Part shown: in pieces, positions 10,600-55,539 of the stretch
How positions within the stretch are numbered: the first letter of the stretch is position 1
Layout: each line of letters opens with the position of its first letter
Origin: Candidatus Microsaccharimonas sp.
GTDB lineage: Bacteria; Patescibacteriota; Saccharimonadia; Saccharimonadales; Saccharimonadaceae
Assembly (NCBI GenBank): GCA_049276535.1
Contig: JBASWP010000001.1
Location: 168,241 to 232,240, forward strand
Direction: 5' to 3'
DNA: 64,000 bases
Program-made: the position numbers and the translations under genes
Notes under the pieces: model-generated
Database searches by the model: none
Seen by the model: the letters and a program-made list of their open reading frames with translations, nothing else
Told to the model about the DNA's origin: nothing

Positions 10600-11193
10600 T
10601 TACGATGCGTTTTGAACCGTAGCGGCTTCGCTATCTAAACGGTCAGAAAGTAACGTGATTGCCATCCGCGCCGACGCATTCAACAACTTTGCTGTCTCTG
10701 CAAAGGTAGTGAATTCAGTTGCCTCGAGCGTCTTTATGGTATTTTCCATAATCGGTCGAAAGAATCCGTTGCCCCACTCCAGACCCAAGGCGTGCAGGTT
10801 ATATAGAACACTAGTCGTGTTATCAATCAAATCAGCATATTTTACGATCCGTACTTCTTCGGGTGCTGAAAAAATTTGTTGCATATATTCAGACGTATGT
10901 TGATCGTCCTGATGATTCGTCAGTTGTTCGATGTAATCAAGGACTCTGTCACCAAACTTCTCTCGCAATTCGTCTCTGGTAACTTCAGTGTCTTCGAGTA
11001 GGTCGTGCCCTAATCCCGCTAGATAAATGTCTTCTAATAAACTTTCATCTAACGATGAATGAGTTGTTCGAAGGGCATAGGTCGCTATCTCGGCAACGTT
11101 ATGACAGTGGAACGTTACAGGAACATCACCCCTAAACTGGCCATCATGCCATTTAGTTATCGTTGCAAACATCAAATCTTTTCGTTGGGTCAT
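10600..11193 (-). CDS. HD-domain phosphohydrolase
   Basis: 'AGLGHDLLEDT' matches the HD motif (H...HD...D) as in the (p)ppGpp-hydrolase/YfbR-like family. Its start overlaps the stop of the upstream large ORF. Confidence 0.55.
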   Translation of the reverse strand: MTQRKDLMFATITKWHDGQFRGDVPVTFHCHNVAEIATYALRTTHSSLDESLLEDIYLAGLGHDLLEDTEVTRDELREKFGDRVLDYIEQLTNHQDDQHTSEYMQQIFSAPEEVRIVKYADLIDNTTSVLYNLHALGLEWGNGFFRPIMENTIKTLEATEFTTFAETAKLLNASARMAITLLSDRLDSEAATVQNAS

Positions 11194-13391
11194 GTCTTAG
11201 CTCCTGCTATTCTTTTGTAGTATCCTAGGAAGTTCTGCCAGGCAGCCTGATCGGCGGCAGGGTCTTGTCCGGCAATAGTACCAGGTGAATGTTTATAATA
11301 CTCTTCTCGCCCGCCCTCATATTTAGGTAGTGGTAGTCCTGCACGCATCAGTATGAACGACGACATCGCCTTGGCAGATTTACCACAGCCATCAGCAAAG
11401 AAGTGGTCAACCATATCAATACGATACTCACAAAACGCGGCAGTTTCTACTGGGTCACTGTCCGGATTTGCCATGCGTTGTTGCAGCTCTTGATAAAACT
11501 GCTGCATCGCAGCCGGTAAATCCTCTAGTCGGGTATAAGGATACTTGTCTGAATCTTCACCACTCCTAATCAGCGCACCTTCCTTGACGATACCTTCATT
11601 GATCTGGGCGGCGATACCTTCAACAAGTTGTCGAACATCTTCAGGCGATGAAAATTCTTTATCGCGTTGTTCAAATGCGCTCATAATTGCCGTGTCAAAA
11701 TTGCGCTTTGCCTTTTCGGCGGCTTCGTCTCCGTCAATTGCTTCCATACTCTCCGCCTTTGTGCCACTCGCCGACACATCAACGGTACCGTTAGCTGTTC
11801 GCGATGTGGCAAGGAGGTTCTGATTTGCATCAGTCAAATATTGAACGGATTCTTCAGCGGACGACGCGTCAGCCATCGTATCGACGGCACGTCGTAAGGT
11901 CTTACCTTTGAACTCACCTAGTTTAGCTCGTACTTTCTGGGCGTACGCTTGCACGTTTTCTGCGTCTCCTATGTAGGTAGCGACGTATTCTTCGATATAC
12001 TCATCAGTAATAACGCGATCACCAATCGCTTCAGCTTCTGCTTGTAGTACCGAGGGGTCAGTCTCGACACTTACCGACATAGCAAGTTCTTCTCGACCTT
12101 CGACAACCCTAATTTCATCGCCATCAAGCTGTGCAACCGTCACTGATTTCTTTTCTGCGTAGTCGAATGCAGTTAACATGTATCCGTCGACACGAGTACC
12201 GCTATACTCTTTGACACTAGCGAATAATTCCCGCCGACTGGCCCGAATACCGACATACCCTTTTACGATAGCCTCGAAAGGAACATTTGGGTCCGCGCCG
12301 CCACGCTGACGTAAAAGGACACCCACCAAAGACGTCTCTACCGGCGCGTCAACGTCAAGAATACGAACCGCTCGATCGGTCTCGGCTGCATTTGCCAGAA
12401 TATCTGCGATATCTTCCGGTGTCTCGTTACGTTTGTCGAGAACCATTGAGGTATCTGGGTTAGTTAACTCTCTATCTACCCTGCGGCCCAACATCGAGCC
12501 TTCATCGTGAACCTGCCCCGCACTAATGTCAACATGTCCTTCACGAAGTTCGTATTTATACGAATCGGGATTCAATGCTCCTGATGGTTCACCTTCCTCA
12601 TCTAAAATTCCGGCAAACATTTCATTGCCTGCAGCGAGTGCGCGTGTTTTACCCGACGCGGTATTTCCACGCAAGGCGTAGATAGTTGGTTTTGGGTTAT
12701 GCTGCTTCAGTCGTTCTGATAATGCTTGCGCCGCTTCTAACGCACCGCTGACAATTGTTTCATGTAACTGCTGTCTTTGAGCTTCCCAATTTTCGGGATT
12801 ATCGTAGACACTTTTTCGTTCTGACTTTGTCATACCTTGGGTCTCGACCGCCACAAATGATTCCACTGTACTTAGCTTTGTCCGTTTTAACTCACCGACC
12901 TTTCCTTCGTATGACCCGTCGGGGGCGACTTCGGCCGAACCTTCTAGCCCGTCCAACCTATCGATCTCGTCAGCAATTTGTTCTGCGAGGGGACGGTCCG
13001 TTTCGGCAATAGCAACGGTAGCCTCGATAACTTCAGAACTGTATCCATCTTGTTTCAGCTCGGCCAACGGATTACCATCGTGCCCAGCTAGTTCACCCTC
13101 CACGGTTTGCCCAGCAGCTGCACTGACTGCTTCAATAATTTCACTGCTTTGATCGTGAGTTCGCTCACCTGTCTGATCGGCCTGCTGAATCGTCTGTTCA
13201 GCAACATAGGTCAGTGCCTCACCTGTTTTTTCTTCTAATTCAACGCGACTAGTGGGTCGGAATGTTTCGGCTACACGGTCTTTAACAGAGATAATTCGAT
13301 CGCGCATCCGCTCAATGAGCGGCTTTTTAACATCGGTTTCTGGACCCTTGTAGCTTTCGGTAGAATCAGACTGCATGTTTGGGTTTGTCAT
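11190..13391 (-). CDS. Large P-loop NTPase protein with C-terminal divergent Fic/Doc-like motif
   Basis: Walker-A-like 'RGNTASGKTRA' mid-protein. The C-terminus has 'HFFADGCGKSAKAMSSFILMRAGLP', which aligns with the Fic core HxFx(D/E)GNGRxxR followed by the LxxxGxP helix. Confidence 0.45.
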   Translation of the reverse strand: MTNPNMQSDSTESYKGPETDVKKPLIERMRDRIISVKDRVAETFRPTSRVELEEKTGEALTYVAEQTIQQADQTGERTHDQSSEIIEAVSAAAGQTVEGELAGHDGNPLAELKQDGYSSEVIEATVAIAETDRPLAEQIADEIDRLDGLEGSAEVAPDGSYEGKVGELKRTKLSTVESFVAVETQGMTKSERKSVYDNPENWEAQRQQLHETIVSGALEAAQALSERLKQHNPKPTIYALRGNTASGKTRALAAGNEMFAGILDEEGEPSGALNPDSYKYELREGHVDISAGQVHDEGSMLGRRVDRELTNPDTSMVLDKRNETPEDIADILANAAETDRAVRILDVDAPVETSLVGVLLRQRGGADPNVPFEAIVKGYVGIRASRRELFASVKEYSGTRVDGYMLTAFDYAEKKSVTVAQLDGDEIRVVEGREELAMSVSVETDPSVLQAEAEAIGDRVITDEYIEEYVATYIGDAENVQAYAQKVRAKLGEFKGKTLRRAVDTMADASSAEESVQYLTDANQNLLATSRTANGTVDVSASGTKAESMEAIDGDEAAEKAKRNFDTAIMSAFEQRDKEFSSPEDVRQLVEGIAAQINEGIVKEGALIRSGEDSDKYPYTRLEDLPAAMQQFYQELQQRMANPDSDPVETAAFCEYRIDMVDHFFADGCGKSAKAMSSFILMRAGLPLPKYEGGREEYYKHSPGTIAGQDPAADQAAWQNFLGYYKRIAGAKT

Positions 13392-13492: not shown

Positions 13493-14098
13493 ATGTCCGA
13501 ATTTACCGATGCCGACTTTTCCGATCCGATCCGCCGAATGAGTGATGGCGCCTTAGCACGCCTACATGCCATTAATAACGGCGAGATTGAATCGATGCGC
13601 GTTGGAGACGAACATCTTTCTTTGATCACAGATCGCCACGAATCAGATATCTTTCAAGAAGTCTCGTATGAGGTCCTCACGCGAGCATTTATCTTTGATC
13701 GTGTCGGTGACCCAATTATGCAACAAGATAGACTTCCGCCTCACCTACAAGGAACGTTAAGTGGCATGCTGTTAACCCTGGCCGATTCACAGGATTCAAA
13801 ACAAAGTCGCAATATTACGCCGCTAGAGTTTGATGCGGAATACGCGGCAAAACTGGTTGCCGACAAGTGGCTTTTATCGACCACTGAACGCATGAATCAT
13901 CAGGATTTTAAGTTTTTTACCCTTGATTTAGGCCACGTTGCCTTCACTAGTATCTTCTTTGCCTACGATACTGATACGCAAGCATGGCGATTAGGATATG
14001 AGATGAAACGACCGTTTATTACCTATAGGGCTCATCCAGATTTTAAAGGCGAAATCGACATTGTCGATGACGAAGAAAGTGATCTCGTCGTTCTATAG
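13493..14098 (+). CDS. Hypothetical protein
   Basis: 201-aa ORF in the background composition. No recognisable motif. Confidence 0.4.
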   Translation: MSEFTDADFSDPIRRMSDGALARLHAINNGEIESMRVGDEHLSLITDRHESDIFQEVSYEVLTRAFIFDRVGDPIMQQDRLPPHLQGTLSGMLLTLADSQDSKQSRNITPLEFDAEYAAKLVADKWLLSTTERMNHQDFKFFTLDLGHVAFTSIFFAYDTDTQAWRLGYEMKRPFITYRAHPDFKGEIDIVDDEESDLVVL

Positions 14099-14127
14099 CT
14101 ATTTCCTACTCTTTCAGAGGTCAGCTA

Positions 14128-14156
14128 TTGAATTATCGTAGTTTTTATGCTATAAT
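14128..14156 (+). promoter_or_regulatory. Sigma70-like promoter (TTGAAT-17-TATAAT, extended TGcTATAAT) driving GC-rich island A
   Basis: TTGAAT at 14128-14133, a 17-bp spacer, TATAAT at 14151-14156 preceded by TGC. It sits in an AT-rich segment immediately 5' of the GC-rich genes. Confidence 0.55.
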
Positions 14157-14269
14157 AGGCTAGCTTGTGAGCCTGCTACCGAATCGGGAGCGAGAGCTCC
14201 AGGTTCGTTAACATGCTCACACACTACGAAAGACTTGTCCCTTGTTAGATCCGACCAAAGGAGAAACAC

Positions 14270-15814
14270 ATGCTTGTCATGGGAATCGCATCTCTGGTTA
14301 TCTGCGCGGTCGGCCTCTACGTGGGCTATCGCACAGGAATGCTGAAGATGCGTTATTGGGTTCGGTTGATTTGGGTCGCCTCGCTTGTCGTGGGGACCTT
14401 CGCCACCGGATTCACCGGCTACTACGCGGCGAACGCCGTGGCGTATCAGGCAGTCGTTGGCGGCTTTCACCAATTCCTTAACGGGACGGTGATCGCTGCT
14501 GACGTCGAAGAGACCAAGTGCGAAAAGGACGGCTCGTGCGTCTACGAGTACGACTGCGACCCCTACCAGGTGCCGCATTACAGTACCGACGAAGACGGCG
14601 AGGTCACCGTTACCTACACCACCGAGTACCACGACTGCCCGTACGCGACTTTCGAGTATCGCTACGAGACGACGGACTCGATCGGTAACACGCACGACTT
14701 TGGGAGCTACATCGCCGCCGAACCTGTCGTCTGGGAGGAAGGAGACCTCCTCGACTTGTTCAACATCGATGTCCCAGAGCTCTTCCCGACCACGATTCCG
14801 GACCACATCCCGCGAGGGGTGCCCGGCGATTGGCAGGCCGCAAGGACTGCCTTGGACAATGGTCGCGGACTGCCGATGACCGTCGAAGGAGAATACGAGA
14901 ACTACATTCTCGCCTCCGACGAGGAACTGCTGAAAGCGTCTTCCGACGATATCGATGCGCTGCTGGATGCGGGTCTGCTCCCCGAGCACACCCAAAACCT
15001 GCACAGCCCGATCTACGGAACGTTCAATGCCAACAAGGTCAACTTCGTCGGGTTCACGCCCGACAACGAGGCCGAGTGGCAAGAGTCAGTCATGCAGTTC
15101 AACGCGGCGCTCGGAAGCGAGCTCCGCGGAGATCTGCACGTGGTCGTCATCGAGGATTCGGCGCTTCCCAGCGACGTCTCCGCAGACGACTACGCCAACG
15201 CCCTCAAGGCGTACTGGCTCAACCATCTCGACAAGTACGCGTTCGGCAAAAACGGCATCATGGTGGTCATCGGAATCGACGACCGTCAGGACACCGTTGA
15301 GTGGGCGCGCGCATCCACAGGCATGCCTACCGGCAACGGAGTCATGCTGTCGTGGATCGAGACGTCCCTCCTGAACGAGTCATACGACCTGCCCACCCTC
15401 ATGGGCGAGACGTATGCGACCGTCGCGAACGGCGAGGCTTCCTACACCATCGGTGAGGGGCTGATTCCGCAAGCGATCATGGTCGACTTCCCGTTCGAAC
15501 GGGTATGCATGAGGTGCGATGAAGACGGCGAAGGCGAAGGTATCGGGTTTAGCGACCTGACCATCAATAGCGAGGTCGAATGGTGGGGCTACTTGGTGAC
15601 GATCATCCTGATGATCGTTATCTTGGCGCTCCCCTGGGGCCTGTTCTTCTACAACAACCTTCTTGCTACCGATCGATACGAAGAGATCGAGGAAGAATCC
15701 ACCCGTATGCGCGAACGCGGTTCCTGGAGAGACGAGTTGAGATACTTGGGTCCCCTGGAATTCGCCAGACGCATCAGACAATCCCGCAAGTCCAACCACA
15801 ACAGATGGAGTTAG
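14270..15814 (+). CDS. GC-rich island A gene 1: membrane protein, function unknown
   Basis: 514-aa ORF with strong third-position GC bias. Two N-terminal TM helices, a large Cys-containing central domain ('CEKDGSCVYEYDCDPY', 'YHDCPY') and a C-terminal TM helix. No recognisable motif. Confidence 0.5.
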   Translation: MLVMGIASLVICAVGLYVGYRTGMLKMRYWVRLIWVASLVVGTFATGFTGYYAANAVAYQAVVGGFHQFLNGTVIAADVEETKCEKDGSCVYEYDCDPYQVPHYSTDEDGEVTVTYTTEYHDCPYATFEYRYETTDSIGNTHDFGSYIAAEPVVWEEGDLLDLFNIDVPELFPTTIPDHIPRGVPGDWQAARTALDNGRGLPMTVEGEYENYILASDEELLKASSDDIDALLDAGLLPEHTQNLHSPIYGTFNANKVNFVGFTPDNEAEWQESVMQFNAALGSELRGDLHVVVIEDSALPSDVSADDYANALKAYWLNHLDKYAFGKNGIMVVIGIDDRQDTVEWARASTGMPTGNGVMLSWIETSLLNESYDLPTLMGETYATVANGEASYTIGEGLIPQAIMVDFPFERVCMRCDEDGEGEGIGFSDLTINSEVEWWGYLVTIILMIVILALPWGLFFYNNLLATDRYEEIEEESTRMRERGSWRDELRYLGPLEFARRIRQSRKSNHNRWS

Positions 15815-15819
15815 ATCCC

Positions 15820-16500
15820 ATGTCCGACAACGACACGTCCTACACGAAGACCCCGCCCCGACTCGTCCCCTGGCTCATCGCCGGTGGTGCGTTCGTCGTC
15901 GCGTTGGTCGTCGGCCTGTCAGTGTTCTTCACCTACCAGAACGTGATCAGCACCGGTAACCAGAAGGAGGCGAACATGAGTTCGCTGTACGCTCAGGGAG
16001 CCACCACGCTGTCCACGTGCCTGGTGCAGACGTCACAGGCGGCCAACGTCGCGCAGGCGGAGTCGGAGGCCTTGCAAGAGGTCTTCGCGTCCGCCATCGC
16101 GGCGCGCTACGACACCCCCGCCGGCCAGATCGACGAGGGCGCGCTGTTCTCGGCGATCGTCGAGGCCTACCCCGATGTGACCGGCCTGGAAGAGACTTTC
16201 CAGCAGGTCATCTCGGTCATCGTCGGCTGCCGCACGGACTACGCCAACGCACAGGCGCTCGTCCAGGTGGCCGTGAAGGACTTCAACAGCTGGCGAACTG
16301 GCAGCTGGGTGGTCCGCACCTTCGGTGGCTCGGAGTTCCCGAACGACAACCTCTACATCGCCATCGGCGACACCGAGGTATACGGTCAGGAGGCCTACGA
16401 GATCATGCGCAAGCCGATCGTCGACAACTCGACGATCACCGCCTACGAGGAAGGAGTCATCGAGATCGAGGACCCCTTCCCGTCGGGCGACGACGAGTAG
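15820..16500 (+). CDS. GC-rich island A gene 2: N-terminally membrane-anchored protein, function unknown
   Basis: Same frame as the track ORF 15580..16500. The likely start is ATG 15820, just after the upstream stop at 15812-15814, giving 'MSDNDTSYTKTPPRLVPWLIAGGAFVVALVV...'. It has one TM helix followed by a soluble domain. Confidence 0.5.
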   Translation: MSDNDTSYTKTPPRLVPWLIAGGAFVVALVVGLSVFFTYQNVISTGNQKEANMSSLYAQGATTLSTCLVQTSQAANVAQAESEALQEVFASAIAARYDTPAGQIDEGALFSAIVEAYPDVTGLEETFQQVISVIVGCRTDYANAQALVQVAVKDFNSWRTGSWVVRTFGGSEFPNDNLYIAIGDTEVYGQEAYEIMRKPIVDNSTITAYEEGVIEIEDPFPSGDDE

Positions 16501-16648
16501 GCATCCCTTCGGGGTAACAAGTAGTGACAGTCCTTCGGGAGTGTGAGCATCCGCCACGGCGTCCGATCACTCGGATGTCCGTGGCGGTATGTGTCCAGGA
16601 ATAGAATAATCCTGCTGATGAGTCGTAAACGACGAAACACATCTTGTA

Positions 16649-16677
16649 TTGAATAATTGTATATTTTATGCTATAAT
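16649..16677 (+). promoter_or_regulatory. Second copy of the TTGAAT-17-TATAAT promoter element
   Basis: Contains TTGAAT, a 17-bp spacer and TATAAT, sharing 'ttttatgctataata' with the 14.1 kb copy. It sits in a short AT-rich gap inside the GC-rich island. Confidence 0.5.
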
Positions 16678-16710
16678 ATACTTATTCCCTACTGAAAGGA
16701 AGTACCCGCG

Positions 16711-17133
16711 ATGAACGTCGCACGAATCCTCGAAATCCTGTTCGATTCACTCGGACAGGTCGACGAGAACCAGAACCCTCTCGAGGGTTCAGAAGTTGTG
16801 GATGTGTACATGCAGCCGATCGCGCTCAACGTCGCGAAGGTGCACGAGTACGCCGCCGAGATGATCGAACTCCTCAAGGAGTGGCCCAGCGAAAGCTGGG
16901 GTCAGTCGGTCCCGCCGCTGGGTGAAGAGATCAACTATCTCATCGCCGGCGCCGTTCTCGACAACCAGCGTCACGCCTTCATGCTGTTCGCCTTCGGCAA
17001 GCTGCTGGACTGGTGGGACATCATGGACCCACACACCATGCTCGGCCTCGCAAAGGACGACCCGTTGGGTCTCCAAATGGCCGGCAGCGGCTTCATCGCC
17101 ATCTTGGGCTACCGTCCGACGGTTCCGGCCTAG
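16711..17133 (+). CDS. GC-rich island A gene 3: hypothetical cytoplasmic protein
   Basis: 140-aa ORF with GC-rich codon usage. A GGAAG ribosome-binding site precedes it and an intrinsic terminator follows. Confidence 0.45.
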   Translation: MNVARILEILFDSLGQVDENQNPLEGSEVVDVYMQPIALNVAKVHEYAAEMIELLKEWPSESWGQSVPPLGEEINYLIAGAVLDNQRHAFMLFAFGKLLDWWDIMDPHTMLGLAKDDPLGLQMAGSGFIAILGYRPTVPA

Positions 17134-17148
17134 ATGGCACACTTGCAG

Positions 17149-17175
17149 TACGGGGATCGGGCGCACACATGTGCG
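17149..17175 (+). terminator. Intrinsic terminator ending island A
   Basis: Perfect hairpin 'gggcgcacacatgtgcgccc' followed by TTTTCTCATTT. Confidence 0.6.
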
Positions 17176-17214
17176 CCCTTTTCTCATTTCAGTATATATC
17201 TATACATGACATCT

Positions 17215-20475: not shown

Positions 20476-20659
20476 TCTTAATTCTTAATTTGTGACTTTC
20501 GTCCTTGGTTATATTCCTATAGCCTGGACTCATCAGCATATGTCTACATATGGAGTCGTGCAGACCTGCGAGGAGGCGAAGTGAATCGCGCTCTCTCGCA
20601 GGTCTGTTAGTGTACGGGCGTTGCGGCTCGCACGGGTGGAATTACACGACTCTTGCCGG

Positions 20660-21436
20660 CTACGGAGCGAAGAAGCCGTTCATCGCCGTCTGGCTGAACG
20701 ACGCCGACTGGCTGGCCCGCACCGCGGACTGGCTGACGACGGCGAACGCCTTGCGGATCTCGGACGGCGAGTTGCCCGGCGTCAGGACCCACTCATCGAG
20801 CAGGCCCATCTTCGAGAACACGTCGCGGAAGTCCGTGTGGCCATCCTCGATGCCGACGCCGGCGATGATGTGCTGCTCGGTCGCCAGCAGTCCCTTCACG
20901 ATCACGGCGACGTCACGAGCCTTCTTGACGGAACCGTAGTCCGCGCCGTCGGTCGTGACGAAGGTGATGGCTCGCGCCGTCACCCCGCCCTGTTCGAACT
21001 CTGCGATCTTTGCAGCCACGGCCGTGAGGACGAGGATCATCTGGTCGTAGAGCGGGGTGCTGCCGCCGGGGTTGTAGTTCGTCCCGTCCAGGCGGATGGC
21101 CTGGTCGAGCAGAACGTACGGCTGCAGCACTCCTCGGTTGAGCGTCCAGACACCGCAGAGAACCGCGGCCTGCTGCTTGGACGCTTTCAGCGAGTCGACC
21201 ACGAGGTTGTGACCATCGCGGGCGTGCTGGGCGTTGTCGTACATCGAGGTGCTGTCGTCGAGCACCTCGGTGACGATGATGACCTCCGAGGCGTCGATGT
21301 CATCGACGACGACCGTGCCGAGGCCGGCGTTGATAGCCGGCCCCAGCGTGTCGACGACCGTAGTCATCGCCGCGGTCGCGTCGTCATCGACCCCTGCTCC
21401 GGAGATCAGGCTGGACAGAGAGGTTGTGCTTGTCAT
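20660..21436 (-). CDS. vWA-domain protein with MIDAS motif (TerY-like), island B gene 4
   Basis: 'LDDSTSM' (DxSxS MIDAS) and 'VTTDGADYG'. GC-rich codon usage. Last gene of the minus-strand operon. Confidence 0.65.
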   Translation of the reverse strand: MTSTTSLSSLISGAGVDDDATAAMTTVVDTLGPAINAGLGTVVVDDIDASEVIIVTEVLDDSTSMYDNAQHARDGHNLVVDSLKASKQQAAVLCGVWTLNRGVLQPYVLLDQAIRLDGTNYNPGGSTPLYDQMILVLTAVAAKIAEFEQGGVTARAITFVTTDGADYGSVKKARDVAVIVKGLLATEQHIIAGVGIEDGHTDFRDVFSKMGLLDEWVLTPGNSPSEIRKAFAVVSQSAVRASQSASFSQTAMNGFFAP

Positions 21437-21457
21437 CTTGTTCGTTTCCTTTCAGGA

Positions 21458-22510
21458 TCAGACGAGATTGATGTCCGGCCAGGACTCGATCGGGTCGGTC
21501 GAGTTGACGACGTGCATGCCGGCGCTGCGGAACTCGTCGAACGCCTTGTCGGCGTCCGGCCCGTAGTCGACGATCACGTCACCGGTGGTGGGGTCCTTCA
21601 CGACGATCGACGTCGTGCAGTCCTCCATGATGTAGATCTTCTTCGCCAGGGCGATGTCGATCGCGGCGATCTCCCGCAGGAGATCCGAGATGGTCCAGGC
21701 CACGCAGTGGCTCTTCGCCTGTCCCGTGATGATCAGCACGTCGTTCTCGATCAGTTCCTTCAGGAACTCGGTGTTGCGAGGGACGGGCTGTCCGTCGAAC
21801 AGCGAGTTAACCTCGGGTCCCAGGATCGAGTAGTTCTCGACGAAGGGGTGAGTCCCCTTGATCTGGATGCCCGGCTGGACTCCACGGACCAGGCCGTGGT
21901 AGTTGACCGCCTCGGCGATGCCGCTGACGAGGGCGTGGCCCTTGTCACCGATCATGCCGTGGTACGGCCACATCGTCAGAGCGTAGCGCCCCGCCGACTC
22001 CAGCTTCGCGGTGTAGTCCATCAGGTGCTGCCGCAGGAACATCACCGATACCTTCAGCGCCGCCGCTGTGAAGGGATCCGGAACCCAGACCCCACCAGCG
22101 ATGTCTGCGTGGGTGATGGTGGTGAACGGCGCCGGGTGGTTGCCGTTCGCATCGATGACGAACGAGGTGTGGAACACCGCGAACGCTCGGTGCGTGTCCA
22201 GCGTGCAGTCGATGCTGGACAGCGTCGCCAGGTTGCGGTAGATGAACTCCGCGGTCCGGATGCTGTCCTGCACCGCGCCATCTCCGCTCATGCCGGCGAC
22301 GAACAGCTCCCCGTTGGGGTCGCAGAACGTCCGCTGAGTGTCGATGAGCAGCAGGCCGACCTTACGAGCGTCGTCCTTCGCCGGCTTGATCCCGAGGGAC
22401 CGCCGGGTGTCGAGTGCCGCCGACTGCAGCGCGCTGAAATCGATCCAGCGCGTGTCATCGACGACGTTCTCCGGCTTGTAAAACGCCGGTAGTGCCAATG
22501 TGTTCTTCAT
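21458..22510 (-). CDS. Isochorismatase/nicotinamidase-family cysteine hydrolase (long form), island B gene 3
   Basis: 'LLLIDTQRTFCDP' (vDmQndF-like) and 'VLIITGQAKSHCVAWTISD' (catalytic Cys segment) with a roughly 130-aa insertion between them. Lies 21 nt from both neighbouring genes. Confidence 0.55.
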   Translation of the reverse strand: MKNTLALPAFYKPENVVDDTRWIDFSALQSAALDTRRSLGIKPAKDDARKVGLLLIDTQRTFCDPNGELFVAGMSGDGAVQDSIRTAEFIYRNLATLSSIDCTLDTHRAFAVFHTSFVIDANGNHPAPFTTITHADIAGGVWVPDPFTAAALKVSVMFLRQHLMDYTAKLESAGRYALTMWPYHGMIGDKGHALVSGIAEAVNYHGLVRGVQPGIQIKGTHPFVENYSILGPEVNSLFDGQPVPRNTEFLKELIENDVLIITGQAKSHCVAWTISDLLREIAAIDIALAKKIYIMEDCTTSIVVKDPTTGDVIVDYGPDADKAFDEFRSAGMHVVNSTDPIESWPDINLV

Positions 22511-22531
22511 TGCCTTGCCTTTCCGTTTTTT

Positions 22532-24403
22532 CTAGTGGATTTTCAGAAGGACGATCTCGTTACCCAAGACCGCGTAGATCCCCTCTCGTCCTTGAACGAG
22601 CTGGGCGTGGGAGTTCACGAACGGCTCGGTGTCGGGGAAAACTTTCTCCACGAACACCGCACCGCCATTCACCCCAAGTCGAACGATGCCGTCGTCGGTG
22701 GCCACGCAGAGCAGCTTACCGATTGCCAGGTGACCCCGAATACCTCCGCCCAGCCATGAATCCTCACCATCCATGGCACTAGCTTCAGCGAGGAGCTTCC
22801 CTTGCTTGTCGACAACGTAACACTTGTGATACAGCGATCCTTGATCCTGCACCGTCGCGAAGAACCAGATCTGGTCGTTCCCGAAAACGGCAGTGGCGTC
22901 GACCAGCTGGCCGGGAATCGAGGGAATCTCGACCCGGTCATTGAACGACTGACCATTGGCGTTAAAGATGAACGAACGGACGATCTTGCCCGCTTGGAAG
23001 AACCCGAAACCGAGTGATTCCCCTACCCAGACCAGTGTCTGATCTGACAGGATGTCACCGATGCGTTCCGGTCCAAACTTGCCGTCCTTGACCAGCTCGT
23101 TGCCGCTCAGCCAGTAGCTGTGCTGCTGGTTCGCGTCGAACACTGGAAGGATCTGACGATAGAGCCCTGTCGTATAGCTCTGGTTCGCACCGTCGCCATC
23201 GATCTCAAAGACCCTGCCTTCTTTTCCAATCAGCGTCGAGTCGCCCTTGATCCTGAACCGAAGTTCGTGATCCAGTTCGCCCGTGAGGACCTTGCGGCCC
23301 CCCTCGCGGTAGTACGCGCCGTTCTCGTGGTACAGATATCGCAGCTCGTGGTCCTGATTCACGACGTACAGCAGGCGCCCGGTTGTACGGAACACTCGCT
23401 CGGACGTGACGGTACCGCGAACGGTGACGACCGTCTTCACATACCCCGACGTGGCCGCGCAGGTCGGACAGATGTTACGCGCATGGGTTTCCCCACACTG
23501 CGTGCATACCGTCCAGCGCAGATTGTCGAAATAGCGAAGCGGAAACTCACCACGCAGATCTTTCTCGTACACCTGGTGCAGGTAGTCCAGAAAGTCGTCC
23601 GGCAAGACACCGAGGGGGAGGGCCGGCTTCGGGTAGATGACACTCGGGTCAAATACCGTCACTCGTCCCAGCACCCTTTCGTCGTGCTGAAGGCGTCTGC
23701 CGGTTTTGGGCCGGTGAACACCTCCGTACGGACCAACCGCCAGTTGCGACTGCATCAGCATCGTAAGAAATGCGTACCAGTCGGACTCTTGGTTGTGTGG
23801 CCGCGCAAGCACAAGGTGATCGGGAGCACACCGAAGCGGGTCGACGAATCGACTCGTGAAGGTGTGGGTCTCGAACCCTGCGAATTGCATACTGTCGGCG
23901 TCGACCACCTTCACGCCACCGTTATTCACGATGACATTCAGGTCATTGACGTCGCCCAGCACCACAGACTGTGCGTGGATCTGCTTGAACACTCGATGGA
24001 GTTCTCGGAAGATCTTGACGACCTGATTACCGTCGATACCGCTTGCTTCGCGGTACTGACGGCTAGTCAGCTTCATCAAAACATCCCCTCCACTGATGAA
24101 AGGCATGGTGTACCCCACCACCTTGTCGTTCCCGGACTTGTCAAAAGCCAGGGCAAGGGGTGCGACGACTTCCGCAGGGAGACCCTTTGGAAAGACGCGC
24201 AGCTTCTTCTGTTGTTCGGCGATGCGAACGACTGCGCCTTGCTGTGCCGCCGAGTCACCCGTGTAGTCGGGATCCTTCGGTGTCTTGAACAGCTTCAGCA
24301 CGGTGTTGTTGTCGACCTTGAAGACGTCTGCTTCGCCACCTTTACCGATCAAGGCGCCCGGTTGCAAACGGACGACCTGACCATTCAGCATGACTGAAGG
24401 CAT
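22532..24403 (-). CDS. Atypical Ser/Thr protein kinase-like protein with CxxC...CxxC zinc ribbon and C-terminal beta-rich domain, island B gene 2
   Basis: Gly-rich loop 'GKGGEADVF', Lys 'VLKLF', catalytic-loop-like 'VLGDVNDLNVIV', 'VVDADS' in place of DFG. Then 'CTQCGETHARNICPTC' and about 300 further residues. It follows the PP2C gene with a 2-nt gap. Confidence 0.55.
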   Translation of the reverse strand: MPSVMLNGQVVRLQPGALIGKGGEADVFKVDNNTVLKLFKTPKDPDYTGDSAAQQGAVVRIAEQQKKLRVFPKGLPAEVVAPLALAFDKSGNDKVVGYTMPFISGGDVLMKLTSRQYREASGIDGNQVVKIFRELHRVFKQIHAQSVVLGDVNDLNVIVNNGGVKVVDADSMQFAGFETHTFTSRFVDPLRCAPDHLVLARPHNQESDWYAFLTMLMQSQLAVGPYGGVHRPKTGRRLQHDERVLGRVTVFDPSVIYPKPALPLGVLPDDFLDYLHQVYEKDLRGEFPLRYFDNLRWTVCTQCGETHARNICPTCAATSGYVKTVVTVRGTVTSERVFRTTGRLLYVVNQDHELRYLYHENGAYYREGGRKVLTGELDHELRFRIKGDSTLIGKEGRVFEIDGDGANQSYTTGLYRQILPVFDANQQHSYWLSGNELVKDGKFGPERIGDILSDQTLVWVGESLGFGFFQAGKIVRSFIFNANGQSFNDRVEIPSIPGQLVDATAVFGNDQIWFFATVQDQGSLYHKCYVVDKQGKLLAEASAMDGEDSWLGGGIRGHLAIGKLLCVATDDGIVRLGVNGGAVFVEKVFPDTEPFVNSHAQLVQGREGIYAVLGNEIVLLKIH

Positions 24404-24405
24404 GG

Positions 24406-25218
24406 TTACTCCGTTTCTGTGGGTTGGGGAACGCGGCGTCCGACGATCATCGTGGTGTCATCCCGCAGGTACCCGAATTCCGGGTCCTTTTGGGGGTAGT
24501 CACGACCGATCAGCTTCAGCTCGCGCTCGATGGCAATGTGGAGGGCGTAGTACTTGTCGTCTTGCCAGAACTGCTCGATCGGTCCGACGATGCCGGACAG
24601 GCCGGGCTTTTTCTTGCCCTCGCTTGCGACCAGGTAGTCTATCCCGTCCGTCGCCAACATGAACGAATTCACGTCGGTGACATCAAACGGGGCAAACACC
24701 GGGTGCAAACGCAACAGGTCGGAATCGACCGTGGCATCCTCGCCCATCAAGCAGTACCCGATATAGGGTGGCTCGTTGTTCGGGAACGGTCCAAGGTTCG
24801 TCACGACTCCGTTGATGACGATGGTGCCGTCGCCTAGCGCAAAGAACGTGATGGTGTGGCCGTCGGTGACAAAACCGAGAAGCGTAAACAGGAAATACTG
24901 CTTGATCACTTCACGATAGTTGCCGCCCATGGCACGCACCAGCACGTCCAACTGCGAGACGACTTGCTGTTGTACGCGGCTCCACTTGATCTGGTGTTTC
25001 GGACCACTGTATGCGGCGCGGATGCTCTCGGCGAGGATCTTGACGCCCAACTGGGCGCCCACCTCGCTGTGAGCATGACTTCCGCAGCCATCAGCCACGA
25101 CTCCGACGGTCAGGTCTCCAGCCGTAAGGATAGTCCAGCTATCCTGACTGTTTAACCCGGCCCAGCGATGATCGCGACCGATCCAGCTTCCGCCAGCGAA
25201 TTGAAATTCGGCTGACAT
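24406..25218 (-). CDS. PP2C-family Ser/Thr phosphatase, island B gene 1
   Basis: 'NSQDS', 'GVVADGCGSH', 'FALGDG', 'ATDGIDYL' and 'DDTTMIV' match PPM/PP2C metal-binding motifs. A GAGGTGA ribosome-binding site precedes the start, which follows a long AT-rich leader. Confidence 0.65.
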   Translation of the reverse strand: MSAEFQFAGGSWIGRDHRWAGLNSQDSWTILTAGDLTVGVVADGCGSHAHSEVGAQLGVKILAESIRAAYSGPKHQIKWSRVQQQVVSQLDVLVRAMGGNYREVIKQYFLFTLLGFVTDGHTITFFALGDGTIVINGVVTNLGPFPNNEPPYIGYCLMGEDATVDSDLLRLHPVFAPFDVTDVNSFMLATDGIDYLVASEGKKKPGLSGIVGPIEQFWQDDKYYALHIAIERELKLIGRDYPQKDPEFGYLRDDTTMIVGRRVPQPTETE

Positions 25219-31081: not shown

Positions 31082-32920
31082 CTACTTCTTGTCCCGCTTG
31101 CCCGGACGGACCGCGTCCCGGATGTCCCGGGCGTGGCCGAGGATCTCCGGTGCGGCCTCGGCGGCAGCCTGCAGGCCCGCGATGGCGTCATCCGCGAACG
31201 ATCCCTCGGAACCGGGCTCGACGACAGAGTCGACGGCCGGAACCACGGGTTCGGCGGGCTCCGCCAGAGCGGCAGCGGTTGCAGCGGCCGCGACGGCCGC
31301 AGTTCCCACTCTGGAGCTGGGGGACTTGGCCGAAGCCGCATCTCCCGACACCACCGGAGCCGGAACCTGCGACTGGGTCGCGGGCTCGGGCTCATCCGCA
31401 GCCGGCTTGGAAGCCGGCTGGTTGCGCAGACCGAGAGGAACGCCTCCACCTGCCTGCTCACCGCGGAGTCCCGCGACGAGCGAACCGAGCATGGCCCCCA
31501 GAGGGGCACCGCCGAGCAGCTGAGACTGCAGGTCACCCTGCTGCATCAGCTTGGGCAGGTCGCCGAGGAAGTCGGACAGCACGTTGCCGCCGCCTTCCCG
31601 AGAACCCGCACCCATGTCGACGATCGTGACCTTCTCGCCGATGTTGCCGACGACCTTGGCGGTCTCGGTGGCGATGGTGACACGCATGTTGCTCTCGATC
31701 TCGGCGATGCGGACCTGGAGGTTCGCACCGTCGTTGGCCGCGAGCGCTTCCGCCATCAGGCGTTCGCGCTCGGCCTCGGCCTTACCGAGTGCGAGGATCG
31801 CAGCGGCTTCGGCCTCACCCTTCGCCTGAGTGGCGTCGGCTTCGGCACGACCACGCGCACGGACCTGCTCGGCCTCGGCGTTGGTGGTGATACCGATGGC
31901 GTCAGCCTTACCCTTCGCCTCGATCGTCACCGCCTCGGCCGCAGCCGACGCTTGGGTCCTGGCGACCGTACCGGCCGCCTGTGCGTCGATCTCGCTCTTG
32001 CGAGCCGAGGACTCCGCCTCGATCTCGAGCGTCTTGCGAGCGGTCTCGGCCTGAGTAACCGCCACCTCCTGTTGGGCGGTGGCGGCGGCCTTCTCCTGCT
32101 GCGCACGAACGACAGTGACCTGGCCCTGTGCAGCTGCGGTCTCCTGGTCGAACTCCGCCTGGCGGAGCGCGACATCGCGATCCTTCTCGGCGACGACCAG
32201 CTTCTTGTCGAGCATGGCCGTCTCCGAGACCTGCTCGGATTCGGCCTTCGCCACGTTGATCGCCTTCTCGGCCGCAGCCGTGAGGACCGCGGCACTGCGC
32301 CGCTTCTCCTCGCGGTCTTCGGCCGCCGAGTTGCTGTAGTACTCGTTCCGGTCGCTGACCTCGGCGATGTTCAGCGAGACCAGCTGGAAGCCCAGGTCCA
32401 GCATCTTCGGCGCGACGTTCGTCGTGACCTGGCTGCTGAACTCGTCCTTCTTGGTGAGCACGTCATCCGGCGTCATCGTCGCGACGACCTGACGAATCTC
32501 TCCGTCAAGCGTCAGCTTGAGCGACTTGACGGTGTCGTCGAAGCCGCCACCGATGTAGCCGACGATGGCCTTCTCGAGCGCGCCGTCGGTCTTCGTGTCG
32601 GGACGGATCTGGGCGGTCCACTTGACGACGATCGGCACCTTGGTGCTGGTCTGCGTCTCGTAGTCGTCCGACTGGATCGTCATGTTGCCCAGCGGGAACC
32701 GCTCGCTCTTGCGAAGGAACGAGACGTAGGCGCCGCCGGACTTGATGATCCGAGGGCCCTTCTTCCCGCCGGTAATCACCAGCGCCTCGTCGGCATCGGT
32801 GATCCGATAGCCGATCTTGAAGACGATGAATCCGACGGCGACGACCACGAGGACGCCGATGACACCCACGATGATCGCGGGTCCTTCGAGCAGGCTCTGC
32901 AGCCACGCGAAGATGTCCAT
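31082..32920 (-). CDS. Flotillin-like SPFH/band-7 protein with long Ala/Glu-rich coiled coil, island C
   Basis: N-terminal TM then an SPFH-like region ('VITGGKKGPRIIKSGGAYVSF', 'VPIVVKWTAQIRP'). Followed by an EA-rich coiled coil ('AEAEQVRARGRAEADATQAKGEAEAAAILALGKAEAERERL') and a flexible Ala/Pro tail. GC-rich. Confidence 0.65.
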   Translation of the reverse strand: MDIFAWLQSLLEGPAIIVGVIGVLVVVAVGFIVFKIGYRITDADEALVITGGKKGPRIIKSGGAYVSFLRKSERFPLGNMTIQSDDYETQTSTKVPIVVKWTAQIRPDTKTDGALEKAIVGYIGGGFDDTVKSLKLTLDGEIRQVVATMTPDDVLTKKDEFSSQVTTNVAPKMLDLGFQLVSLNIAEVSDRNEYYSNSAAEDREEKRRSAAVLTAAAEKAINVAKAESEQVSETAMLDKKLVVAEKDRDVALRQAEFDQETAAAQGQVTVVRAQQEKAAATAQQEVAVTQAETARKTLEIEAESSARKSEIDAQAAGTVARTQASAAAEAVTIEAKGKADAIGITTNAEAEQVRARGRAEADATQAKGEAEAAAILALGKAEAERERLMAEALAANDGANLQVRIAEIESNMRVTIATETAKVVGNIGEKVTIVDMGAGSREGGGNVLSDFLGDLPKLMQQGDLQSQLLGGAPLGAMLGSLVAGLRGEQAGGGVPLGLRNQPASKPAADEPEPATQSQVPAPVVSGDAASAKSPSSRVGTAAVAAAATAAALAEPAEPVVPAVDSVVEPGSEGSFADDAIAGLQAAAEAAPEILGHARDIRDAVRPGKRDKK

Positions 32921-33177
32921 GTATTTCTCCTTGGGATAGGTGTTGCATGAATGGTGGGATGAACGTAACTAGTTACGTATGTAGTTTCATGATGAATTGT
33001 GATGATCGTTCGTCGCCCACCAGCGAATTTTGCAATTTTACATCTTTTTTCATAAAAAGTCAAGGGTTGAGAGGTGTTAATTTGATAATAACGCGATGTT
33101 AATTAACTTGCAAAAAATACATAAATATGATATATTACCTCTGTTGTTTTACTGGACACTACCGGAAGGCGTAAGAC

Positions 33178-34182: not shown

Positions 34183-34302
34183 CCACGCCGGCTCGAAAAC
34201 AGCAACAACTCGTCGCTAATACCGGCGATACGGAGGGCGGCTCGGGATTTCCCCGGGCTGCCCTCCAGCAACACCCACGCGGGTGTTATTTTATTTCAAA
34301 AA

Positions 34303-34331
34303 TTGACAATAGTATAGATAATTGTTATAAT
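34303..34331 (+). promoter_or_regulatory. Perfect-consensus sigma70 promoter TTGACA-17-TATAAT
   Basis: TTGACA at 34303-34308, a 17-bp spacer, TATAAT at 34326-34331. A GAGGA ribosome-binding site and a GTG start at 34368 follow. Confidence 0.6.
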
Positions 34332-34367
34332 ATACATACTGTTCACGAGACGAGATGAGGAATAATC

Positions 34368-34754
34368 GTGTTGATCCCCAAAGGAGACGGAACGTTCACG
34401 AGCGGACCGTTAGACATCATCCTGATTTACCACAACGTCGAAGCGGACACCTTCCATCCCGCCTTCTACCGCGAGCACGGCATGCCGGGCCCGCCGGAAC
34501 TGGCGAGTGAGCAGGACTTCGTCCGGCTCATGAGTGACAAGCACCACACCGATGGGCTCCCCACCCTCGAAGAGGCTCAGGAGTTCGTTCGAACGACCAT
34601 GCAACCCACGTTCGGGGTGCCTGACCGCAACATCGTCCTCGACCCGCCCTATCCATGGCACGGTCAGATCGGTGATGTGATGATCGTGCAGAACTGGCTG
34701 AAGGTCGGACCTGATGCCACGTTCCGCGAGGTCAACGTCAACGTCACTACATGA
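34368..34754 (+). CDS. Hypothetical protein (island C), GTG start
   Basis: 128-aa GC-rich ORF downstream of a consensus promoter and ribosome-binding site. No recognisable motif. Confidence 0.4.
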   Translation: MLIPKGDGTFTSGPLDIILIYHNVEADTFHPAFYREHGMPGPPELASEQDFVRLMSDKHHTDGLPTLEEAQEFVRTTMQPTFGVPDRNIVLDPPYPWHGQIGDVMIVQNWLKVGPDATFREVNVNVTT

Positions 34755-41391: not shown

Positions 41392-41503
41392 TCTCCATAA
41401 GTGTACGGTACATTGACGGTATTATCAATATGTGATAATGTAAGGATTGACCTAAACACAAATGGAGTTTAGTCAATTCGCCTAGCTTTTTGGAGTAACC
41501 GCA

Positions 41504-42551: not shown

Positions 42552-42603
42552 ATATAGCGTTGTTATAGAGATACTATAGCCACAGCACCTGAAGGAGCAC
42601 CCA

Positions 42604-55522: not shown

Positions 55523-55539
<17 letters not shown>

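What the first reader, a model, noticed from the sequence alone, without database searches (positions are those of the whole stretch)
14100..17185. GC-rich three-gene cassette of uncharacterised membrane/secreted proteins with its own promoters and terminator
A GC-rich block with strong third-position GC encodes three proteins. The first is 514 aa with two N-terminal TM helices, a Cys-pair-containing extracytoplasmic domain and a C-terminal TM. The second is 226 aa, TM-anchored with a soluble domain. The third is 140 aa and cytoplasmic. I cannot recognise a family signature in any of them. The cassette is driven by a near-consensus promoter at 14128-14156, with a second copy of the same element before gene 3. 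It has a roughly 110-nt structured leader and ends with a perfect intrinsic terminator at 17149-17175. Its composition is completely unlike the flanking nadD and hypothetical genes. This is a candidate novel envelope-associated system whose function, for example exclusion, immunity or adhesion, is unknown.
Basis: partly seen in the sequence, partly recalled or inferred. Interest (0 to 1): 0.7.

Follow-up and report, generated by a model that had tools for sequence, protein, structure and literature searches.

The report
Membrane-protein operon ending in a hammerhead ribozyme
The GC-rich block is a membrane-protein gene pair (divergent TPM-domain and LemA-like proteins) conserved in Saccharibacteria and related CPR bacteria, which in Saccharibacteria is followed by a previously unnoticed self-cleaving hammerhead ribozyme; this gives a rare, testable case for what such ribozymes do in bacteria.

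Summary
The window comes from a Candidatus Microsaccharimonas (Saccharibacteria) MAG.

The interpretation needs revising.
- Gene 3 belongs to a separate, conserved family of unknown function. Elsewhere it occurs as a lone gene.
- The high GC3 is not a sign of foreign DNA or a chimera. The gene-pair relatives are GC-richer than their own flanks in 19 of 19 loci.
It sits just after a strong hairpin and just before gene 3's promoter.
- The same hairpin-plus-ribozyme arrangement follows gene 2 relatives in 20 loci, with compensatory changes in all three stems. Non-Saccharibacteria CPR have ordinary terminators there.
- A second such ribozyme ends another GC-rich operon at 20489-20562 (-).

The most likely role is ribozyme-made 3' end formation and insulation of the operon mRNA. 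This role is inferred, not shown.

The parts
14128..14156 (+). Promoter P1 (TTGAAT-17-TATAAT, extended -10), part of the 32-nt element 14126-14157
   Evidence: The second copy at 16647-16678 matches at 28 of 32 bases.
14163..14269 (+). 5' leader of about 107 nt, with a hairpin at about 14166-14221 and the RBS GGAG
   Evidence: MFE -34.8 kcal/mol, z = -2.9. The closest relatives share the leader block GGYTCNTTAACAWGC.
14270..15814 (+). Gene 1: 514-aa membrane protein with two N-terminal TM helices, an extracytoplasmic beta-rich domain and a TPM-fold domain carrying 6 conserved Cys, and a C-terminal TM helix with a basic tail
15820..16500 (+). Gene 2: 226-aa single-pass membrane protein, a divergent LemA-like helical protein, starting 5 nt after the gene 1 stop codon
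   Evidence: phrog_1383 at E 2.9e-12 over profile positions 10-160. The same profile is hit by the window's true LemA. The only PDB hit of its profile is LemA 2etd. It follows gene 1 in every locus examined.
16547..16592 (+). Strong GC-rich hairpin with no U tract, immediately 5' of the ribozyme
   Evidence: z -4.1 and -5.2. An equivalent hairpin precedes the ribozyme in 14 of 15 related loci, with unrelated hairpin sequences.
16588..16643 (+). Type III hammerhead ribozyme. Predicted cleavage falls after C16595 (GUC|C). Stem I is CAGGA/UCCUG, stem II is GUCG-UAAA-CGAC and stem III is (A)UGUGU/ACACA(U).
   Evidence: Rfam RF00008 at 50.2 bits against a gathering score of 48.5, E 1.5e-10 to 4e-8. 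My covariance model R1 scores it at 73 bits. Covariation is shown.
16649..16677 (+). Promoter P2 for gene 3, starting 6 nt after the ribozyme
16711..17133 (+). Gene 3: 140-aa soluble protein of a conserved family of unknown function. It is not part of the conserved pair.
   Evidence: 53 close homologues. 402 cluster representatives at E <= 1e-3. It is a lone gene elsewhere. No Pfam or PDB match.
17159..17185 (+). Intrinsic terminator (8-bp GC stem plus T run). It is the only terminator-like site downstream of P1 that is not inside a coding region.
20489..20562 (-). Second type III hammerhead ribozyme, preceded by a hairpin at 20561-20606, at the 3' end of another GC3-rich operon (20660-25218, - strand)
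   Evidence: Found by regex. R1 scores it at 42.3 bits, E 4e-9, and it was not used to build the model.

Best explanation
What the block encodes. Window 14128-17185 is a transcription unit of a Saccharibacteria chromosome, driven by a strong promoter. It encodes a divergent TPM-domain membrane protein (gene 1) and a divergent LemA-like membrane protein (gene 2). These form a conserved CPR gene pair. The large domains of both proteins are predicted to face outward and to be disulfide-stabilised. The pair probably works like other LemA/TPM pairs, in membrane or envelope maintenance or assembly. That role is inferred, because the biochemistry of these families is itself unclear.

How the transcript is processed. 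The operon has no intrinsic terminator after gene 2. Instead it has a strong hairpin directly followed by a type III hammerhead ribozyme. Transcription from P1 most likely reads through towards gene 3 and the terminator at 17159. The ribozyme would cut after C16595. That leaves the gene 1-gene 2 mRNA with a 3' end made of a stable hairpin, a tail of a few nucleotides and a 2',3'-cyclic phosphate. Such an end should resist 3' exonucleases and tailing. The downstream RNA would start with a 5'-OH, which uncouples (insulates) gene 3. Gene 3 has its own copy of the promoter and is an unrelated conserved gene.

Composition. The high GC3 is a conserved property of these gene families, not a mark of foreign origin.

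Shown: gene content, folds and profiles, the ribozyme motif and its covariation, synteny, and composition. Inferred: self-cleavage in vivo, read-through, and the stabilising or insulating role.
For: Proteins:
- Gene 2 matches phrog_1383 at 2.9e-12. That profile is LemA-family, because the window's PF04011 protein (2.8e-60) hits it at 2.4e-24.
- Gene 2 follows gene 1 in the window, L001, L003, L004, L011-L021, L023-L025 and L028, and in Yanofskybacteria, Falkowbacteria and one other CPR locus.

Ribozyme:
- Rfam hit above the gathering score with the full core CUGAUGA...GAAA and a GUC cleavage site.
- The same motif lies 74-329 nt after gene 2 in 15 of 19 Saccharibacteria loci, plus 5 metagenome loci. 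L021, L023, L025, L152, L153, L155 and L157 were found by the covariance model and had not been used to build it.
- 14 of 15 base pairs show double (compensatory) changes, and 96% of cells are paired against 23-50% for slid controls.

Hairpin and position:
- A strong hairpin (-22 to -47 kcal/mol) immediately precedes the ribozyme in 14 of 15 loci, with unrelated hairpin sequences.
- Non-Saccharibacteria CPR loci have classic hairpin-plus-U terminators at the same position and no ribozyme. This fits the two elements being functional alternatives.
- No terminator-like site lies between gene 2 and gene 3.

Composition: GC of the pair exceeds that of the flanks in 19 of 19 loci, by 7.9 points on average.
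Against: - No experiment or transcript data were available. Cleavage, read-through and mRNA half-life are all inferred.
- The MFE fold of 16540-16650 pairs the 3' strand of stem III with an upstream GUGUG (16541-16545) instead of the strand next to the cleavage site. The active fold may therefore compete with an inactive one.
- Some orthologous ribozymes carry core changes that usually lower activity: C3U in L004, and a swapped 15.1-16.1 pair in L021, L023 and L025.
- Four Saccharibacteria loci lack the ribozyme (L013, L014, L020, L028), so it is dispensable.
- Gene 1 fails Pfam's TPM threshold (13.6 against 22.1 bits).
Confidence: 0.6

Rival explanations
1. The block is a horizontally acquired island from a high-GC donor, or an assembly chimera. 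Its composition would then reflect foreign origin. This is the reading implied by the first reader.
For: GC3 is 0.78-0.91 against about 0.45 in the background, with sharp boundaries at 14.1 and 17.2 kb. Codon usage resembles a high-GC organism, for example AAG 0.91 against 0.39 and ATC 0.92 against 0.40.
Against: - Homologues of gene 1 are all CPR.
- Relatives of the pair at 34-59% identity are GC-richer than their own flanks in 19 of 19 loci with unrelated neighbours. The three gene 3 homologues examined also have raised GC3.
- There is no integrase, tRNA or bounding direct repeat.
- The contig is 700 kb, and NCBI's annotation has the same genes.
Confidence: 0.04
2. The hammerhead (with or without its hairpin) is a selfish or mobile repeat, or a leftover of a phage or retroelement. 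It would then land in intergenic DNA without serving the operon.
For: - Bacterial hammerheads are mostly reported near prophage genes, flanking genes of varying identity (PMC3088659).
- Several copies occur per genome: 2 in this window, 3 in L017, 2 each in L015 and L011.
- Copies within one genome resemble each other. L015's two differ at 4 of 51 nt, and L017's share an unusual stem II.
- The core pattern is common in viral contigs.
Against: - It keeps the same position, strand and orientation after gene 2 in 20 loci whose proteins are only 30-65% identical. The core is preserved and the stems change in a compensatory way.
- The accompanying hairpins are unrelated in sequence, and the window's two copies differ in stems and hairpin. 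This is therefore not a dispersed repeat.
- No phage genes are adjacent. Only one 'viral' contig carries gene 1, and it has no ribozyme.
Confidence: 0.12
3. The ribozyme serves the downstream gene. It would trim a read-through or long 5' UTR to set the 5' end, and so the stability or translation, of the next mRNA (here gene 3).
For: Cleavage would leave a 5'-OH RNA that starts 115 nt before gene 3. In several loci a promoter or gene start follows within 100 nt.
Against: - The downstream genes differ between loci and are often on the other strand.
- Gene 3 homologues elsewhere have no ribozyme upstream (L005, L007 and L009).
- In the window, gene 3 has its own consensus promoter between the ribozyme and its start codon.
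Confidence: 0.08
4. The ribozyme units punctuate tandem GC3-rich genes, so that flanked segments are excised. These segments could then be ligated into circular RNAs, as in retrozymes or viroid-like RNAs.
For: L015 and L017 have hammerheads both before and after the gene 1-gene 2 pair, and L015's two copies are near-identical direct repeats. Perreault et al. raised this possibility for clustered bacterial hammerheads.
Against: - The window and most loci have a ribozyme only on the 3' side.
- The 'upstream' copies in L015 and L017 each sit at the 3' end of a preceding GC3-rich gene.
- Perreault et al. found no circular or spliced products.
Confidence: 0.05

Closest known systems
Type III hammerhead ribozyme (Rfam RF00008); bacterial hammerheads described by Perreault et al. 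2011 (PMC3088659)
   Same: It has the same catalytic core, the same three-helix junction with stem III open, and a score above Rfam's gathering threshold. Like the reported bacterial examples, it lies between genes of one transcription direction and would cut a long transcript into gene-length or operon-length pieces.
   Different: - Reported bacterial cases are mainly in prophage regions, next to genes whose identity is not constant. Here the ribozyme is tied to one chromosomal, phylum-wide gene pair.
- It is always 3' of that pair and always behind a strong hairpin.
- It occupies the place where relatives in other CPR lineages have an intrinsic terminator.
- I found no paper linking hammerheads to Saccharibacteria, Patescibacteria or CPR.
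LemA (PF04011) and TPM-domain (PF04536) membrane proteins: TLP18.3/Psb32, BA41/BA42, MamQ
   Same: Gene 1 has the TPM fold flanked by TM helices. Gene 2 has the LemA layout (N-terminal TM helix plus a helical domain with the 'AxxExYPD' block) and matches a LemA-family profile. The two are adjacent and translationally close. That LemA and TPM genes are often neighbours in bacteria is my own knowledge and was not tested here.
   Different: - Both proteins fall below Pfam thresholds.
- Gene 1 has an extra N-terminal beta-rich domain, six conserved cysteines (including an RxCMxC motif) and a second N-terminal TM helix.
- The gene order is TPM first, then LemA.
- The same genome also keeps a canonical LemA operon (55523-58251), so this is a second, CPR-specific paralogous system.
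Intrinsic (hairpin plus U-tract) terminators; engineered ribozyme insulators (RiboJ-type); glmS ribozyme with RNase J decay of the 5'-OH product
   Same: A stable hairpin sits at the mRNA's 3' end and defines where the message ends. Self-cleavage decouples neighbouring expression units. Relatives encode RNase J (L001), which could act on the 5'-OH product.
   Different: There is no U tract, so the 3' end would be made by RNA self-cleavage rather than by polymerase release. The cleavage is not known to depend on a ligand. These are comparisons of how it may work, not claims of membership.

Membership tests
Hammerhead ribozyme, type III (RF00008) | Conserved catalytic core (C3 U4 G5 A6 N7 G8 A9 ... 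G12 A13 A14) and a non-G nucleotide at the cleavage site after a U16.1-A15.1 pair | tested here: met
   CUGAUGA ... GAAA with GUC|C at 16593-16596, in the cmscan alignment. Some orthologues deviate: C3U in L004, and a swapped 15.1/16.1 pair in L021, L023 and L025.
Hammerhead ribozyme, type III (RF00008) | Three helices around the core with helix III open, supported by covariation | tested here: met
   14 of 15 pairs show changes on both sides across 24 sequences. 96% of cells are paired, against 23-50% when partners are slid (for the 15-sequence seed). Caveat: the seed sequences were picked by a regex that required pairing. Nine sequences were found independently by the covariance model.
Hammerhead ribozyme, type III (RF00008) | Score at or above Rfam's gathering threshold | tested here: met
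   50.2 bits against 48.5. The second copy at 20489-20562 did not reach the threshold, but scores 42 bits (E 4e-9) with my model.
Hammerhead ribozyme, type III (RF00008) | Site-specific self-cleavage giving 2',3'-cyclic phosphate and 5'-OH ends | not testable with these tools
   This needs in vitro transcription or cyclic-phosphate-specific RNA-seq.
TPM domain (PF04536) | Match to the Pfam model above its gathering score | tested here: not met
   13.6 bits against 22.1, E 0.068, residues 273-346. Only 4 of 66 family members give even a weak hit.
TPM domain (PF04536) | TPM fold (alpha/beta sandwich as in TLP18.3, BA42) | tested here: met
TPM domain (PF04536) | Phosphatase or metal-binding activity reported for some members | not tested
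   Active-site residues were not compared. The activity is in any case weakly established for the family (own knowledge).
LemA family (PF04011) | Match to the Pfam model above its gathering score | tested here: not met
   Gene 2 gives no hit. 2 of 18 relatives give weak hits, best E 0.029. The NCBIfam MamQ hit is at E 0.037.
LemA family (PF04011) | Significant full-length match to a profile that bona fide LemA proteins match | tested here: met
   phrog_1383: gene 2 at E 2.9e-12 over profile positions 10-160. The window's PF04011 protein matches at E 2.4e-24 over positions 11-160.
LemA family (PF04011) | LemA fold (helical bundle, PDB 2etd) after an N-terminal TM helix | tested here: inconclusive
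Horizontally acquired genomic island | Atypical composition that is specific to this genome, with orthologues elsewhere having their host's composition or being absent | tested here: not met
   Gene-pair relatives are GC-richer than their flanks in 19 of 19 loci, and the three gene 3 homologues examined also have raised GC3.
Horizontally acquired genomic island | Mobility signatures (integrase or transposase, tRNA target, flanking direct repeats) | tested here: not met
   None lies between 11 and 20 kb. The nearest tRNA is at 39.3 kb. The only notable direct repeat is the duplicated promoter.

The most novel reading that the evidence does not exclude
Saccharibacteria may have a distinct class of transcription units: genes with extreme, evolutionarily maintained GC3, whose mRNAs end in a ribozyme-cut 3' end (hairpin plus 2',3'-cyclic phosphate) instead of an intrinsic terminator. 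This could be a dedicated route to unusually long-lived or specially handled messages in these tiny episymbionts. Handling might include RNase J 'torpedo' clearance of the downstream RNA, or even circularisation or export.

The evidence so far:
- Genes directly 5' of the 24 hammerheads found have median GC3 0.73, against 0.45 for background ORFs.
- The four clear non-gene-2 cases have GC3 0.71-0.89.
- L017 has three consecutive GC3-rich units, each followed by a hammerhead.
Probability: 0.2. Interest if true: 0.85.

Novelty: new variant of a known kind. Interest (0 to 1): 0.62.

Why it matters
What hammerhead ribozymes do in bacteria has been open since they were found there in 2010-2011. Known cases sit in prophages next to changing genes, so no stable phenotype can be attached to them. 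Here a hammerhead is fixed to one conserved chromosomal operon across many Saccharibacteria. It is always behind a hairpin, and it sits where sister lineages use a normal terminator. That makes a clear, testable hypothesis: the ribozyme makes and protects the 3' end of the mRNA and insulates it from the next gene. The phylum has recently become genetically tractable (own knowledge).

The work also gives a first structural assignment (TPM-like plus LemA-like) to a CPR-wide pair of hypothetical membrane proteins. It further flags an unexplained, conserved class of GC3-rich genes in these reduced genomes.

Tried and rejected
- Pfam, NCBIfam and PADLOC on the three proteins gave only sub-threshold hits.
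- tblastn of genes 1 and 2 against 50,697 phage genomes found nothing.
- The gene 1 family profile against PDB sequences found nothing. The gene 3 profile against PDB found nothing. Pfam on ten distant gene 3 relatives found nothing. The context of a distant gene 3 relative, next to dnaJ, was uninformative.
- The first search for related loci attempt with the 66-sequence alignment failed and was redone with 19 sequences. The afdb50 fold library was not available.
- Rfam on the leader found nothing, so there is no known riboswitch.
- I tested whether every GC-rich island ends in a hammerhead. It does not: island 3 (31082-34754) and gene 3 use ordinary terminators.
- I tested whether the leader motif is general. 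It occurs only in the closest clade.
- Translational selection as the cause of high GC3 is rejected. Ribosomal-protein genes in the window and in related loci are not GC3-rich, and both C-ending and G-ending codons are enriched.
- Literature searches for hammerheads in Saccharibacteria, Patescibacteria, CPR or TM7, and for GC3 or codon usage in Saccharibacteria, found nothing relevant.


Full report
OBSERVATION

The three ORFs are real. Gene 1 is 14270-15814 (514 aa), gene 2 is 15820-16500 (226 aa) and gene 3 is 16711-17133 (140 aa). Exact-match database proteins place the window in a 700,895-bp contig of a Candidatus Microsaccharimonas sp. MAG, with locus tags WAO28_01005 and WAO28_01010.

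GC3 is 0.78, 0.91 and 0.82. The upstream gene has 0.44 and the rest of the window about 0.45. GC1 and GC2 are ordinary. The codon usage of the GC-rich genes is completely different from the background, for example AAG 0.91 against 0.39 and ATC 0.92 against 0.40.

- The promoter TTGAAT-17-TATAAT lies at 14128-14156 and is repeated at 16649-16677, as a 32-nt element with 28 of 32 bases identical.
- The leader holds a hairpin with z = -2.9.
- A clean intrinsic terminator lies at 17159-17178 followed by a T run.

THE PROTEINS

Gene 1 has 108 homologues. All named ones are CPR (Saccharibacteria, Yanofskybacteria, Falkowbacteria), and none has a Pfam domain.

- An AlphaFold model built on 66 relatives is confident (pLDDT 90.8, pTM 0.82).
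- Foldseek against viral models finds a jumbo-phage protein and a 'TPM domain-containing protein'.
- The Pfam TPM model itself gives only 13.6 bits against a cut-off of 22.1. This is a fold-level assignment, not a sequence-level one.

Hydrophobicity and the positive-inside rule give this layout: N-terminus out, TM1, a basic loop inside, TM2, a large domain outside, TM3, and a basic tail inside. The outside domain combines a beta-rich region with the TPM fold and carries six conserved cysteines: C84, C90, C96, C123, C413 and C416.

Gene 2 has one N-terminal TM helix and a helical domain with two conserved cysteines.

- It matches PHROG 1383 at E 2.9e-12 over almost the whole profile.
- That profile is a LemA-family profile. 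The window's own bona fide LemA (57688-58251, PF04011 at 2.8e-60) hits it at 2.4e-24 over the same positions.
- The only PDB sequence hit of the gene 2 family profile is LemA 2etd (E 0.31), and the best NCBIfam hit is MamQ, a LemA relative.

I therefore call gene 2 a divergent LemA-like protein with good but not complete support.

Gene 2 starts 5 nt after the gene 1 stop codon. It follows a gene 1 relative in every locus where the contig continues. This holds for 19 Saccharibacteria loci and for three loci from other CPR lineages.

Gene 3 is different. Its family is well conserved (58-72% identity; 402 cluster representatives). In other genomes it is a lone gene, next to pyruvate kinase, AraC-type regulators or ClpC/NusA, and never next to genes 1 and 2. 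It has no Pfam or PDB relative. The 'three-gene cassette' is really a conserved pair plus an unrelated neighbour.

THE COMPOSITION IS NOT FOREIGN

In all 19 distinct loci holding a gene 1 relative (34-59% protein identity), the gene 1-gene 2 span, or gene 1 alone where the contig ends, is GC-richer than the rest of its locus. The mean excess is 7.9 points, and GC3 reaches 0.86 and 0.94. Neighbouring genes differ among the loci whose gene maps I examined. The three gene 3 homologues examined also have raised GC3, and a Yanofskybacteria locus shows the same bias.

Ribosomal-protein genes are not GC3-rich. No mobility genes, tRNAs or bounding repeats are present.

Recent transfer and assembly chimerism are thus effectively excluded. 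Ordinary translational selection is also unlikely. Why these families keep extreme GC3 remains unexplained.

THE MISSED ELEMENT: A HAMMERHEAD RIBOZYME

Rfam finds a type III hammerhead at 16588-16643, with 50.2 bits against a gathering score of 48.5. It has the full CUGAUGA/GAAA core and a GUC|C cleavage site at 16595/16596. Stem I is CAGGA/UCCUG, stem II is GUCG-UAAA-CGAC and stem III has 5-6 bp. It lies 88 nt after the gene 2 stop codon. It sits directly behind a very stable hairpin at 16547-16592 (z about -4 to -5), and 6 nt before the -35 box of gene 3's promoter.

A structure-aware regex, and then a covariance model built from 15 hits, found the same ribozyme 74-329 nt downstream of gene 2 relatives in 15 of 19 Saccharibacteria loci and in 5 further metagenome loci. 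Several of these were not used to build the model.

Across 24 ribozyme sequences, 14 of 15 base pairs show compensatory double changes while the core stays fixed. In 14 of 15 loci a strong hairpin (-22 to -47 kcal/mol) of unrelated sequence immediately precedes the ribozyme. The four Saccharibacteria loci without it have either a classic terminator or a U-less hairpin. The Yanofskybacteria and Falkowbacteria loci have classic hairpin-plus-U terminators at that position.

A second hairpin-plus-hammerhead lies at 20489-20606 (- strand). It closes another GC3-rich operon in the window, encoding a PP2C phosphatase, a kinase-like protein and two unknowns. In L017, three consecutive GC3-rich units are each followed by a hammerhead. 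Genes directly upstream of hammerheads have median GC3 0.73 against 0.45 for the background. These observations are not independent, because 20 of the 24 are gene 2 orthologues.

MECHANISM

Shown:
- The motif, its covariation and its fixed position and strand.
- The conserved hairpin.
- The absence of a terminator between gene 2 and gene 3.
- Its replacement by terminators in sister lineages.

Inferred:
- Transcription from P1 reads through the U-less hairpin.
- The ribozyme cuts after C16595.
- The gene 1-gene 2 mRNA is left with a hairpin and a 2',3'-cyclic phosphate 3' end, which should resist 3' exonucleases and tailing.
- The downstream RNA starts with a 5'-OH. This is a known RNase J substrate in Firmicutes (own knowledge), and relatives encode RNase J.
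- Gene 3, with its own promoter, is thereby insulated.

Caveats:
- The MFE fold offers a competing pairing for the 3' strand of stem III.
- Some orthologues carry weakening core changes.
- The ribozyme is absent from some relatives.

COMPARISON WITH WHAT IS KNOWN

Bacterial hammerheads were reported as mostly prophage-associated. They flank genes of inconstant identity, and their function is unknown. Processing of long transcripts was suggested (PMC3088659).

This case shares the ribozyme class and the 'cut a long transcript' logic. It differs in three ways. It is bound to one chromosomal, lineage-wide operon. It is always 3' of that operon, behind a hairpin. And it stands in for a terminator.

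Full-text searches found nothing linking hammerheads with Saccharibacteria, Patescibacteria, CPR or TM7.

The proteins are a new, divergent variant of the poorly understood LemA/TPM membrane proteins. A canonical LemA operon coexists in the same window.

VERDICT

The protein pair alone would be of modest interest: divergent members of known but obscure families.

Three things raise the finding to moderately high interest:
- the conserved hammerhead;
- its architecture, behind a hairpin and in the place of a terminator;
- its association with a conserved class of GC3-rich genes.

Together they make the long-standing question of what hammerheads do in bacteria directly testable.

I rate the finding a new variant of a known kind, with interest 0.62 and confidence 0.6 in the composite explanation. 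Confidence by component:
- about 0.9 that the ribozyme motif is real and conserved;
- about 0.8 for the TPM and LemA assignment;
- about 0.45 for the 3'-end-forming and insulating role.

Noticed in passing
window 20489-20606 (-) and 20660-25218 (-): A second hairpin plus type III hammerhead lies at the 3' end of another GC3-rich operon. The operon encodes PP2C (PF13672), a kinase-like 623-aa protein, and proteins of 350 and 258 aa. This resembles the vWA/PP2C/kinase 'TerY-P' type triads (own knowledge, not tested).
   Followed up: partly
window 31082-34754: A third GC3-rich block encodes an SPFH/flotillin protein (612 aa, - strand), a 334-aa TM/acidic protein and a 128-aa protein. GC3 is 0.69-0.85. 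Each has an AT-rich promoter and an ordinary terminator, and there is no ribozyme.
   Followed up: partly
window 11190-13391 (-) and 13493-14098 (+): A 733-aa protein has an XopAJ/AvrRxo1-type zeta-toxin kinase domain (NCBIfam E 3.4e-64) and a weak Fic-like C-terminus. The divergently transcribed 201-aa neighbour has no family match.
   Followed up: no
window 55523-58251 (-): A canonical LemA (PF04011, 2.8e-60) is followed by a Gly-rich 411-aa DUF3137/Tim44-like protein and an M48 peptidase. Gene 2 is therefore a second, divergent LemA paralogue in this genome.
   Followed up: partly
window 14200-14225; L001, L003, L004 and L011, 66-124 nt upstream of gene 1: The gene 1 leaders of the closest clade share the conserved block GGYTCNTTAACAWGC. 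The L003 and L011 leaders also contain a terminator-like hairpin plus U run. This may be a cis-regulatory leader, and Rfam has no match for it.
   Followed up: partly
L017 3899-3974, 4716-4775 and 7414-7472; L015 4579-4637 and 7283-7341: Tandem GC3-rich genes are each followed by a hammerhead. L015's two copies differ at only 4 of 51 nt, and L017's copies share an unusual stem II (GCCG/CGGC). This suggests within-genome duplication or homogenisation.
   Followed up: partly
L004 4324-4377; L021 2086-2144, L023 7135-7193, L025 7123-7181: These are natural core variants of the ribozyme. L004 has C3U (UUGAUGA). L021, L023 and L025 have a swapped U15.1-A16.1 pair, giving the cleavage triplet AAC. 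They may have reduced or altered activity.
   Followed up: no
window 16541-16545 versus 16590-16594: GUGUG occurs on both sides of the hairpin. The MFE fold pairs the ribozyme's 3' strand with the upstream copy, which gives a possible inactive alternative conformation.
   Followed up: no
window 41482-41742 and 42574-42873: Two short GC-rich stretches (0.63-0.64) lie between genes of the rpsP/KH/rimM/trmD region. Only dubious ORFs cover them and Rfam finds nothing. They may be structured RNAs.
   Followed up: no
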